Shown: positions 58,862 to 62,811 of the stretch, in pieces | Layout: each line of letters starts with the position of its first letter | Numbering within the stretch: position 1 is the stretch's first letter | From: Mobula hypostoma | Lineage: Eukaryota | Assembly (NCBI RefSeq): GCF_963921235.1 | Contig: NC_086097.1 | Coordinates: forward strand, 106,704,001-106,768,000 | Direction: 5' to 3' | DNA length: 64,000 nucleotides | The notes under the pieces: model-generated | What the model saw: only the letters and a program-made list of their open reading frames with translations | What the model was told of the DNA's origin: nothing | Databases searched by the model: none | Made by a program: the position numbers and the translations under genes

Positions 58862-59059
58862 TGTACCGTATAGCCTACATTATAATAAGGGACTACTTTA
58901 TGTTTTAGTAACACATCGTTGCATGCGCTATTAGGCATGTATTGCTCTGTACATGTGTGCCGACTTCGGATTATGCCAGTAAAGAACTATGAAACTTAGC
59001 TCCCATCTCCAGTGTTTTTATTAATAGCATTGTTGTGTAGCCAGGCCACATACACAACA
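58862..59059 (+). repeat. 5' LTR
   Basis: TG...CA ends; ungapped match to 62614-62811 with about 18 substitutions by hand count. Confidence 0.95.
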
Positions 59060-59062
59060 AAC

Positions 59063-59073
59063 TGGCGACGAGG
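59063..59073 (+). promoter_or_regulatory. Primer binding site, tRNA-Ser(GCT) type
   Basis: TGGCGACGAGG 3 nt after the 5' LTR; complementary to ...CCUCGUCGCCA, the 3' end of vertebrate tRNA-Ser(GCU). Confidence 0.85.
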
Positions 59074-59439
59074 TTAAGGAACCTACATCTTATCAGAATG
59101 CCGTGTTTTAGTTGATAACGACACTCGGAGGAAGAGCACAAGGAATGAGCCAAGGAGTGGGAGAAGGAGGCAGAGTGAGGCCGTGAGTCCGAAAGGAAGC
59201 GGGAGCACAGCTGGGGTGGGGAACGTCAGGAGACCAAGAGACACAGTAGGAGCCACAGCACGTCCAGCCGAGACCACAGACGGCGCTGACTCTAGGGGCT
59301 GAGGGACTGCCTGTCCAGAAGGGAGATAAAAAGGAGCGACACACGCATCTAGATGGAGTGCACTCGTGGCGCTAGCAAAAAGGACACGCGAGTCAAAAAG
59401 AAAACAAGGGGAAAACGGGGCTAAATTAACATAACAAAG

Positions 59440-60630
59440 ATGGCGATGACTGGAACCATTACAGCATTTGATAGTGGCATTGAAGACTGGGCAATTTACA
59501 TTGAGAGAGTGAAGTTATATTGTGATGCTAATGATGTTAATGATGAAAAGAAAGCCAGCGTCTTGCAAGGTATTATGGGAGCAAAAACATAAGGGCTGCT
59601 ACGGAGCTTGTTTACTCCTGAAAAGCCAGCTGACAAAACGTTCAAGCAAATAGTAGACACTCACGAACAGCAATCAAACCCCAAACCACTGGTCATTGCT
59701 GAAAGATTTAAGTTTCACAAACGGAATCAGAGCAAAAATGAAAGCATTTCTGAATATCATGCTGAATTGTGCAAATTATCAGAACATTGTCAATTTGGAG
59801 CTGGGCTATCAGACACATTGAGGGACAGGTTAGTGTATGGAATGCACTATGAAACCACACAGAAGAAGCTCCTGGGTGAAAAAAGACCTTACATTAGAGA
59901 AGGCGCTGAACATTGCAATATCAACGGAAACAGCAGCATGGGGTGCTTCAGAGATACAACAAAAATCTCCAGGATATGCTACGAATAAAATGTCACAGAA
60001 CAGAAATGAAGGAAAGAAATATTACCATTGTGAGAACATGTCACATGACCCTGATGACTGTTGGTTTAAAGACAAAGAATGCAGAAACTGCGGCAAACAG
60101 GGCCACACTGGCAGTGTATACAAAGCTAGTAAACAGCGGAAAAAGGACAAAATACAGAGAAACAAGAAACCCCAGAAAGGAAAATGCAACAACATACACA
60201 AAATGGAAGAAAGCAGTTCTGATGAAAACGACTCAGACAAAAGTGAATTGTCTTGTCTGCAACTACACAGCGTGAAAGAGTCAGATGATCGAAGAGTAAT
60301 ATGGATCATTCCACAAGTGGCGGGTGTGAGACTGAAAATGGAGTTGGACACAGGCTCAGGTTTAATAATGATCTCTGTATACGACTACAAATGACTGTTT
60401 TCTCACATACCTCTGAAATGAACTAAACTACTGCTAAGGACTTGCACAGGACAGAAAGTGCGTCCCAAAGGCAAAATTAAAGTGACAGTGACTCATGGAG
60501 ACAAAACACAGCAGCTAAACCTCTATGTACTGAAAAATGAAGGGCCACAGTTGTTGGGACAGGAATGGCTCAGGAAAATCCAGTTGGATTGGCACACCAT
60601 CAAGACACAAGGTGTGTCAACAAAGGAGGG
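59440..60630 (+). pseudogene. Gypsy gag plus aspartic protease, disrupted
   Basis: MAMTGTITAFDSGIEDWAIYIERV...PKPLVIAERFKFHKRNQ...LRDRLV; two degenerate zinc knuckles (CENMSHDPDDC, CRNCGKQGH); protease LDTGS and LLGQEWL; stops near 59590, 60392, 60419 and a +1 frameshift near 59880. Confidence 0.92.
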
Positions 60631-60646
60631 CAGCTCAGCCGTGAAG

Positions 60647-62044
60647 ATGTCCGCAGCTCTCCTCTCACCCATTGTCGACTAATACAACAATGAGGAGGAG
60701 CTAGACAGCGTCAACGATGAAGACAAACACAGTATCCGTGGCTGCGACTTGGATGAAGATACAGAGGATGCAAGTGAGACAGATATTGCCAATAAGCAGG
60801 ATGATGAAAACTACCTGGAAGTAAAAGAGCAGATGTACCAGGAGAAATTGACATCTCTCAAAAGACAGCTACAGCAGTTACAGGAAGGCACTTTGCAGGA
60901 GTATCAGAAAAGGATGAGGAAACTAGATCAACAATACAAGGAAAGAATACGAAATGCAGAGCTTTTTCTGCAACTGGAGACAGAACAACTGGAAAGGAAT
61001 TATATTAAAGAGAAGAAAGCAGCAGTAAAGGAATTTGAAGATAAAAAGATTGAGTTAGAAGAAAAGAAAAAAGATGATTGAGAATGAGAGGCTAACAATG
61101 GAACTCACAGGAGATTCTATGGCGGTAAAGCCAAAAATGACTAGGAAACTAAAGAGGAGACCTAATGACCCTGGTCCAATTACAGACAAAAGACAAAAAC
61201 CTGCACCTGTGCAGTTAAATTACTTGTTAATAGATGAACAGATTAGATTATGAGGACACTCAGTTCTCGTTTATTGTCATTTAGAAATGCGTGCATTAAA
61301 AATGATACAATGTTCCTCCAGAAAGATATCACAGAAACACAGGACAAATCAAAACTAACTGACAAAACCACATAATTATAACATAAGTTATAAACTTCGA
61401 GCCTCCGTCCAGCCCTCTGACACTGAGCACCATCTCTGCCGAGCGCTTTGACCCCGCCCTGGCCGCTGAGCAACAAGCAAAGCCGAGGACTCAGGGCCTT
61501 CCCCTCCAGAGATTCAGGATCACACAGTAGCAGTGGCAGCGAAACAGGCATTTCAGAAGTTTCACCAGATCTTCCTCCGTACTCTCACGTCTGTCTTCAT
61601 CAGATCAGGATTGTGCACAACATCCTACTTGACAAATAACAGATATCATTCACCGGAGTGTCCGCTGCAAGCTGCGTCGCGCCGCTATCTTCTCCTCTCC
61701 TCATTATGTAAGGTCTGTGAACTCTCAATAAGCTTAAACCTCCGAAAAGACCAGCATCTCCGTCTTCTCCTGAGCATCTTCCCAGCACTCCTGTTGAATC
61801 ACCAGCACAAAGATATGAAGCACGAATAGAAGCAGGAAAGTTATATTACGATAAGAGATGGTATCATAAAGGTCAGGCTATCTATTTGGAATCAATGGAG
61901 AATACGAAGATTGGCTGTGTAATTAGCTCAGTTGGAACAAATGAGATATGGGTAAGGAAGACAAATGATAGCACAAAGTTGTGTATATATCTAGGACAGC
62001 GGCACAGAGGAGTCTTCATTATACGGAGGCGATCTGCTGCCTGG
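60647..62044 (+). pseudogene. SUDS3: Processed (intronless) pseudogene of SUDS3 / SDS3, Sin3-HDAC corepressor subunit
   Basis: MSAALL...[11 protein letters not shown]...[55 protein letters not shown]...[12 protein letters not shown]...QLNYLL; resumes at 61703 with [21 protein letters not shown]...[11 protein letters not shown]...FIIRRRSAA. Matches vertebrate SDS3 end to end; has stops, a 24-nt deletion, a frameshift and one insertion. Confidence 0.96.
61245..61702 (-). mobile_element. Short non-LTR (SINE-like or deleted LINE) insertion splitting the SUDS3 copy
   Basis: SUDS3 frame stops at DEQI and resumes at IM; on minus strand starts GAGGAGAGGAGAAGATAGCGGCGCG and ends AATAAA...(TAATC)n; no GT-AG ends on plus. 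Confidence 0.75.
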
Positions 62045-62613
62045 AGCTCTTAGCAAAGTTGGAGGCACATATCTTCTTAACTCTCTGTGCTCAGAGGTCA
62101 ACTGTTCATGACCTTTATATGGAAATCTGTATTAAAACAAACAAGTTTATTGTCAGACTGAAGAACACACTATTTGAAGACACTTTTCAATGCCATCTCA
62201 GTTTTGATGATTGTACATATTTTTAAGAATAACATTCACCTTTTCACGGATTTCACTTTGCTTTCGTCATCTTTGCAAGATGGAGGTGACTACTCTTTAT
62301 GGCTGGAACCTGCCAATTTGTAGATTGTTCAATTTATTCCAGTCAATAGAGTGAAGACCTACTTGCTTCAGTGTCAGACAATCTAGAGAAGACCACCCCC
62401 CCCAAGACTTGAGTTATAAATGGGTCTTAGACCAATAGTAAAAAAGGCTTGTTATAATTCGATATTATTATGTTACTTTGTTATAATTTGATATGATTAA
62501 GTTGCTAAGTAAACAAATGGTAGGCATTTGTATGTTAAGGGTAAATATATTTGTTTAGCATAATGCCCCAGTAAAAAAAAAGTTGATGCACTATTAAAAT
62601 AAAAGTGGAGGAG

Positions 62614-62811
62614 TGTACCGTATAGCCTACATCATAATAAGGAACTACTTTATGTTTTAGTAACATGTCATTGCATGTGCTGTTAGGCGCGTATTGATCT
62701 GTACGTGTGTGCCGAGTTTGGATTATGCCAGTAAAGAACCATGAAACTTAGCTCCCGCCTCCAGCGTTTTTATTAATAGCATTGTTGTGTAGTCAGGCCA
62801 CATACACAACA
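62614..62811 (+). repeat. 3' LTR
   Basis: Direct repeat of 58862-59059, preceded by purine tract AAAATAAAAGTGGAGGAG (PPT, 62596-62613). Confidence 0.95.

What the first reader, a model, noticed from the sequence alone, without database searches (positions are those of the whole stretch)
59440..62044. SUDS3 is fused in frame to Gag-protease: a reconstructable Gag-PR-SDS3 polyprotein
Seen: ORF 60458-60682 reads from protease (LLGQEWLRKIQLDW) straight into MSAALLSPIVD with no stop; the same frame extends back through the zinc knuckles to ~59880. The lesions are simple (TGA at 60392 and 60419 plausibly from CGA, TAA at 59590 and 60680 at likely Tyr codons, single-A gains in A runs). Inference: at capture the element may have encoded a Gag-onc-like fusion from which protease could release full-length SDS3, potentially interfering with or recruiting Sin3-HDAC. 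An in-frame junction has a 1-in-3 chance by accident, so function is not shown.
Basis: partly seen in the sequence, partly recalled or inferred. Interest (0 to 1): 0.8.

Follow-up and report, generated by a model that had tools for sequence, protein, structure and literature searches.

The report
Retrotransposon family carrying in-frame SUDS3
This is one dead copy of a jumping-gene family, with an estimated 400 copies in a ray-like fish genome, that carries a spliced copy of the host gene SUDS3 in place of its own copying enzymes and joined in frame to its Gag and protease; the fused protein likely never mattered, because the SUDS3 part mutates as if unused.

Summary
Observation confirmed; the functional reading is not supported. 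The window holds an LTR-bounded Gypsy-type element (58862-62811) whose RT-RNase H-integrase is replaced by spliced SUDS3 mRNA; the parent gene (12 exons) lies on another contig. The switch sits in a 10-nt stretch shared by pol-bearing relatives and the SUDS3 5'UTR. The junction is in frame in 76 of 79 copies; about 400 copies are estimated. No stop or frameshift is inherited family-wide, so the founder frame was likely open. Against function: 0 of 46 full-length copies are unbroken; SUDS3 dN/dS is 0.90 for private and 1.14 for inherited variants; 70 of 71 copies lack 8 residues of the dimerisation coil, so the cargo was never full-length; 17 of 79 copies belong to subfamilies that multiplied with SDS3 cut. 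One of these captured a second mRNA (Y-box protein), again in sense and in frame (15 of 22 copies), also decaying neutrally. This is LTR-mediated retroposition (Tan 2016) at unusual scale. The scan found this family before on other DNA of this genome.

The parts
58862..59059 (+). 5' LTR (198 bp, TG...CA), preceded by 5-bp target-site copy ACAGC
59060..59072 (+). primer-binding-site-like motif (TGGCGACGAG; label recalled, not tested against tRNAs)
59440..60250 (+). gag, broken (stop 59590, +1 shift near 59885), with two Cys/His knuckle-like motifs near 60020-60110
   Evidence: a pol-bearing relative gives weak Pfam hits to Retrotrans_gag and PNMA, below cut-off
60251..60624 (+). aspartic protease region (DTG motif near 60347), broken by stops at 60392 and 60419, and linker
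   Evidence: RVP match in a relative
60625..60634 (+). 5' switch point: 10-nt stretch shared by pol-bearing relatives and the host SUDS3 5'UTR
60635..60646 (+). 12 nt of host SUDS3 5'UTR, read in frame
60647..62044 (+). spliced SUDS3 coding sequence (all 11 introns absent), 94.8% identical to the parent; family-wide 24-nt deletion near 61051; stops 60680, 61709, 61718; +1 shift near 61068
61244..61702 (.). later 459-bp repeat insertion splitting the SUDS3 copy; related pieces lie at other positions in other copies
62045..62387 (+). 342 nt of host SUDS3 3'UTR (long-UTR subtype)
62385..62613 (+). 3' switch back to the element's own 3' region, ending in a purine-rich tract
62614..62811 (+). 3' LTR, K2P 0.099 from the 5' LTR, followed by GCAGC

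Best explanation
This is a decayed copy of a non-autonomous Gypsy-type LTR retrotransposon family whose pol is replaced by spliced SUDS3 mRNA in frame with Gag-protease, likely through a template switch of reverse transcriptase, and which likely multiplied using the enzymes of its pol-bearing relatives with SDS3 as an unselected passenger. Shown: structure, parent gene, shared 10-nt switch stretch, frame, copy number range, individual 5-bp target-site duplications, neutral substitution pattern. Inferred: SUDS3 mRNA was packaged with the element RNA; reverse transcriptase jumped to it and back; the founder lost 24 nt before the burst; helper elements supplied RT and integrase; repeated co-packaging gave further switches (second 3' junction, mosaic gag, later captures). 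The frame follows from where the shared stretch lies. A founder transcript would have made a Gag-PR-SDS3(minus 8 aa) polyprotein, since the relatives encode gag and pol in one frame, but nothing shows the SDS3 part was used.
For: Parent gene with 12 exons and intact 319-aa frame, all introns missing in the copy. Pol-bearing relatives match the window up to 60634, then run into RT-RNase H-integrase, and rejoin at 62385. 140 exact junction matches with 27 of 79 recall give about 410 copies; relatives 65 matches with 7 of 30 recall give about 280; 414 candidates. 28 of 30 copies with both LTRs have a 5-bp duplication with at most one mismatch (counted by eye). Short-UTR subtype (30 of 79) carries helper sequence that the long-UTR subtype (26 of 79) lacks, yet both share the 5' junction and the 24-nt deletion. 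Non-CpG dN/dS in SUDS3: singletons 0.90, 2-3 carriers 0.98, 4 or more 1.16, linked inherited variants 1.14 (10 N, 3 S); the same test detects constraint in gag-PR variants shared with helpers (0.47, p 0.03). 0 of 46 copies covering both parts are free of breaks (2-20, mean 8). 17 of 79 copies belong to three subfamilies with SDS3 interrupted.
Against: Power on inherited SUDS3 variants is low (13 variants; the family is star-like), so a short-lived function in the founder cannot be excluded. Fixed host-versus-family differences are 3 N to 12 S, which looks like constraint; I ascribe the S changes to the host lineage (a copy carries on average 7.0 non-CpG synonymous changes) but had no outgroup DNA to polarise them. 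Three inherited events keep the frame (SUDS3 junction, 24-nt deletion, Y-box junction). The estimated chimera number exceeds that of the helpers. Shared words of similar length between helper and SUDS3 5'UTR are not rare (15-21 per helper copy), so the stretch allows the switch but does not explain why this one succeeded.
Confidence: 0.75

Rival explanations
1. Open-frame filter: chimeras whose cargo continues the gag-PR frame replicate better, because the RNA escapes decay at an early stop or is packaged by the Gag made from it; the cargo's amino-acid sequence is irrelevant.
For: Both sense captures enter through a 5'UTR in frame: SUDS3 and a Y-box mRNA at an 11-nt shared stretch, 15 of 22 copies, about 30 copies in the genome: 1 in 9 by chance. 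The family-wide deletion is 24 nt, while only 28 of 108 private SUDS3 indels keep the frame. dN/dS near 1 is what this model predicts.
Against: Post hoc, three events. The antisense RING-gene capture stops the frame within ten codons in 5 of 5 copies and still multiplied. 5 of 22 Y-box copies are shifted by one base at the same spacing, two on different contigs with a shared neighbouring variant. One stop in gag-PR passes the inherited filter (4 carriers).
Confidence: 0.15
2. Gag-onc-like function: the founder's protease released a near-complete SDS3 that altered Sin3-HDAC silencing in the germ line, or SDS3's nucleic-acid-binding domain aided packaging, and this drove the burst.
For: Frame open family-wide and DTG the commonest protease motif (58 of 79). 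By offset to Ty3 RT (4OL8) the RT start falls some 20 residues before the junction, so a PR/RT cut site would likely be kept (extrapolated beyond the aligned part). SDS3 dimerises, binds Sin3 and HDAC, and its C-terminal domain binds G-quadruplexes (PMC8800102, passages). Only 3 amino-acid columns differ from the host.
Against: Neutral dN/dS in inherited variants; 8 residues missing inside the solved dimer coil 4ZQA; subfamilies without the C-terminal domain, or without everything after codon ~127, multiplied; no unbroken copy among 46.
Confidence: 0.06
3. The copies act today at RNA level, as a source of small silencing RNAs or decoy transcripts against the host SUDS3 and the other captured genes.
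For: Hundreds of copies about 94% identical to the parent; precedent in moth PxyMasc retrocopies (PMC9674220, abstract).
Against: The parent gene is intact and its protein matches named ray SDS3 proteins; copies are dispersed and decay evenly; no small-RNA data were seen.
Confidence: 0.04

Closest known systems
LTR-mediated retrocopies of animals (Tan et al. 2016, PMC5131818; passages read), including HERV-K/FAM8A1
   Same: Host mRNA replaces part of the internal ORF; short shared stretches at the switch points; both LTRs kept; further rounds as non-autonomous elements; several genes co-captured; sense and in-frame ORFs common.
   Different: About 400 copies, apparently more than the helper; whole CDS captured almost exactly where RT begins; serial recapture inside the cargo; a cartilaginous fish, not among the species of the passages read.
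Maize Bs1 (as described in PMC5131818, passages)
   Same: LTR element carrying parts of three host mRNAs, two in frame, copies sharing switch points.
   Different: Bs1 has 1-5 copies per species; here hundreds, all decayed.
Acutely transforming retroviruses with Gag-onc fusions (recalled, no call)
   Same: Defective genome, host mRNA fused in frame to gag, needs a helper.
   Different: No envelope gene between the LTRs of the relatives examined; the fusion follows the protease; no sign of selection on the cargo.
SUDS3 retrocopies of cartilaginous fishes (bioRxiv 10.64898/2026.06.26.734816; passages)
   Same: SUDS3 is named among the top retrocopy parents of cartilaginous fishes.
   Different: The passages tie retrocopy abundance to non-LTR elements; here one LTR capture and re-transposition account for the copies examined. 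Its supplements were not seen.

Membership tests
Ty3/Gypsy-type LTR retrotransposon (helper family) | LTRs with TG...CA ends and short target-site duplication | tested here: met
Ty3/Gypsy-type LTR retrotransposon (helper family) | domain order PR-RT-RNase H-integrase | tested here: met
   one pol-bearing copy; best RT structure match Ty3
Ty3/Gypsy-type LTR retrotransposon (helper family) | RT phylogeny places it in a named Gypsy clade | not tested
   only similarity to K02A2.6-like proteins
LTR-mediated retrocopy | intronless host mRNA replacing internal ORF between both LTRs | tested here: met
LTR-mediated retrocopy | short shared stretch at the switch points | tested here: met
   5': 10 nt; short-UTR 3' junction 5 nt; Y-box junction 11 nt. 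The window's own 3' junction shows no clear exact overlap
LTR-mediated retrocopy | secondary retrotransposition with shared junctions | tested here: met
LTR-mediated retrocopy | co-transcription with the LTR | tested here: inconclusive
   junction contigs exist, but no run is on record as RNA
Gag-onc-like functional fusion | cargo in frame with gag | tested here: met
   76 of 79
Gag-onc-like functional fusion | cargo under purifying selection or retained in all multiplying lineages | tested here: not met
Gag-onc-like functional fusion | fusion protein made, processed and active on the host | not testable with these tools
   needs translation and biochemical data

The most novel reading that the evidence does not exclude
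A vertebrate retrotransposon lineage acted as a serial in-frame gene collector: it fused first the Sin3-HDAC subunit SDS3 and then an RNA-chaperone Y-box protein to its Gag-protease, each through the 5'UTR, because an uninterrupted frame, and perhaps for a short time the cargo proteins themselves, helped the defective element out-replicate its helper.
Probability: 0.2. Interest if true: 0.75.

Novelty: new variant of a known kind. Interest (0 to 1): 0.42.

Why it matters
It likely explains a published oddity, SUDS3 among the top retrocopy parents of cartilaginous fishes: in this genome one LTR capture was re-transposed hundreds of times, so the count reflects neither many independent LINE-made copies nor selective retention. 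It also explains 'SDS3-like' gene models in Mobula annotations, which carry the family's 8-residue deletion. The nested captures give a dated, many-copy record of template switching and a way to test whether frame matters for captured genes. As a functional Gag-SDS3 protein the case is weak.

Tried and rejected
Inherited stop in the protease: one column has a stop as commonest codon (1 of 413), but it shows no linkage to inherited variants (best p 0.003 of 143 tests; control pairs reach 4e-13), occurs in all subfamilies and in 7 helpers: recurrent. Segmental duplication: rejected by individual target-site duplications. LINE-made processed pseudogene inserted into an element: rejected, pol is replaced and both ends are switch points. 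Expression: no RNA holder listed; junction-bridging contigs in runs only guessed to be RNA (X11, X16) show presence, not transcription, and no silent control stretch was laid. Other top retrocopy parents: SLU7 and MIR-domain searches gave only exon-sized hits, not followed up. No annotated Gag-PR-SDS3 fusion among the 120 listed of 473 homologues of 308-980 aa; longer or shorter ones not searched. The PR/RT cut site could not be located. Window fragments gave no Pfam hit for gag or protease. No tRNA genes in the window. No complex or fold prediction was run. Literature searches found no paper on an LTR-borne SUDS3; one search listed only 15 of 484 papers, none with SUDS3.

Full report
Observation. 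The frame 60422-60679 reads from the end of an aspartic protease into the first 11 codons of SDS3 without a stop, and the same frame extends to about 59885 with two stops. The region lies between two 198-bp LTRs (58862-59059, 62614-62811; K2P 0.099) with a near-perfect 5-bp target-site duplication.

Host and parent. The closest named proteins are from Mobula, so the genome is likely that of a myliobatiform ray. A splice-acceptor pattern gave one hit, which led to the parent SUDS3 on contig C78: 12 exons, an intact 319-aa frame, ten GT-AG introns and one AT-AC intron, all missing from the copy. The element took 12 nt of unique 5'UTR, the whole CDS and 342 nt of 3'UTR.

Donor and junction. Of 69 loci picked by protease similarity, 41 carry SUDS3 and 28 do not (before removing duplicates). 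Pol-bearing relatives match the window to 60634, continue into RT, RNase H and integrase, and rejoin at 62385. Natural copies show gag running into protease and protease into pol without a frameshift, so gag-pol is likely one frame. The last 10 nt before the divergence are shared with the SUDS3 5'UTR, the signature of template switching described by Tan et al. (PMC5131818, passages). Shared words of that quality are not rare (15-21 per helper copy against 261 nt upstream of the ATG).

Family. I held 112 distinct loci: 79 chimeras (window included), 30 pol-type relatives and 3 set aside (one broken upstream of the junction, two with unrelated sequence after the protease). The sample is biased towards copies like the window. 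Exact junction matches and their recall in the sample give about 410 chimeras and 280 relatives, rough figures. 28 of 30 chimeras with both LTRs have a 5-bp duplication with at most one mismatch, so these are separate integrations; median LTR divergence is 0.084 and 0.106 in the two main subtypes and 0.097 in 6 relatives: one old burst, contemporary with the helpers. Gene models named SDS3-like in two Mobula species carry the family's 8-residue deletion, and junction-bridging contigs occur in runs of four coded organisms (E, F, G, H), so the burst likely predates several speciations.

Was the founder frame open? 76 of 79 junctions are in frame. No frameshift is shared by more than 6 copies. 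Of 413 gag-PR codon columns one has a stop as commonest codon; it and the other frequent stops lie at hypermutable columns, occur across subfamilies and helpers, and are unlinked to inherited variants, whereas inherited variants are strongly linked to each other. The window's other stops are shared by 1-3 copies, or by 14 and 22 at such columns. So the founder likely had one open Gag-PR-SDS3 frame. One change is inherited by nearly all: a 24-nt deletion, 70 of 71 copies spanning it, removing 8 residues inside the segment solved as 4ZQA, which by my reading is the antiparallel dimerisation coil described in PMC8800102 (passages). The amplified cargo was therefore not full-length SDS3.

Was SDS3 used? 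Counting against each column's commonest codon, leaving out CpG-type columns and the deletion region: SUDS3 dN/dS is 0.90 (592 singletons), 0.98, 1.16 (4 or more carriers) and 1.14 for 13 linked inherited variants; gag-PR gives 0.90 for singletons, 0.47 for inherited variants also seen in helpers (p 0.03) and 0.76 for chimera-only ones (16 variants, not significant). Family-versus-host differences are 3 N and 12 S; each copy has gathered about 7 non-CpG synonymous changes since the burst, enough to ascribe the S changes to the host branch, but this was not polarised with outgroup DNA. None of 46 copies covering both parts is unbroken. 17 of 79 copies (12 of 40 protease-picked) belong to subfamilies in which SDS3 is cut: two by an antisense piece of a RING-finger gene at nt 677 or 698, one of them with a stop within ten codons in 5 of 5 copies, and one at codon ~127. 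They multiplied, so intact SDS3 was not needed.

A second in-frame capture. The subfamily cut at codon ~127 switched, at an 11-nt shared stretch, into the 5'UTR of a host Y-box (cold-shock domain) mRNA whose exons lie on C75; about 30 copies exist. The Y-box ATG is in frame with Gag-PR-SDS3 in 15 of 22 copies (one more lacked the anchor); dN/dS there is 1.2-1.4. Two of two sense captures in frame has a chance of 1 in 9, and the 24-nt deletion also keeps the frame, which leaves room for an open-frame filter; the antisense capture and some shifted Y-box copies speak against it.

Mechanism. Most likely SUDS3 mRNA was packaged with the element RNA and reverse transcriptase switched onto it and back, giving an element with LTRs, primer site and purine tract but no pol. 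Helpers copied it. Continued co-packaging is indicated by the short-UTR subtype, which has helper sequence absent from the long-UTR subtype, and by gag variants shared with helpers. A founder RNA would have been translated into Gag-PR-SDS3; the offset to Ty3 RT suggests the PR/RT cut lay upstream of the junction (extrapolated), so a shortened SDS3 with a short extra N-terminus could have been released. That step is untested and left no trace of selection.

Comparison and verdict. It meets the tested criteria of LTR-mediated retrocopies; it fails the selection criterion of a functional Gag-onc-like fusion. A 2026 preprint lists SUDS3 among the top retrocopy parents of cartilaginous fishes and links retrocopy numbers to non-LTR elements (passages; supplements not seen and may bear on this). 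Searches showed no paper describing this family. Known mechanism, unusual in scale and in serial capture; interest 0.42.

Noticed in passing
G000:C75:3291130-3305302 (parent); loci L131, L145, L189-L205: Subfamily of about 30 copies with a Y-box (cold-shock domain) mRNA, first ~218 codons, captured in sense and in frame after SDS3 codon ~127, followed by the antisense RING-gene piece.
   Followed up: yes
   Followed up: partly
LTRs of L116, L128, L130, L021, L034, L036 and others: LTRs come in about 198- and 223-bp forms (a 25-bp tandem unit); 11 of 30 elements have one of each, unexpected if both LTRs are copied from one template.
   Followed up: partly
pairs L029/L033, L021/L045, L023/L051, L119/L062, L036/L038, L126/L151: Best-supported sister copies in the gag-PR tree lie 0.5-3.4 Mb apart on one contig; the two pairs with target sites read have different ones: possibly gene conversion between neighbours or local hopping.
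   Followed up: no
G000:C78:8395737-8398853: Intron 7 of the host SUDS3 has AT-AC ends (minor-spliceosome type), correctly removed in the retrocopy.
   Followed up: yes
proteins P0009, P0020, P0021, P0022: NCBI 'SDS3-like' models of two Mobula species lack the same 8 residues: likely copies of this family annotated as genes; P0009 and P0022 have open 311-aa frames.
   Followed up: partly
window 61244-61702: 459-bp repeat insertion; related pieces lie in other copies of the family (L040, L043, L051, L090) at other positions. Class not determined.
   Followed up: partly
window 1-58500: Dense with truncated LINE-like reverse-transcriptase fragments on the minus strand (repeat families, ORFs); labels from recall.
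   Followed up: no
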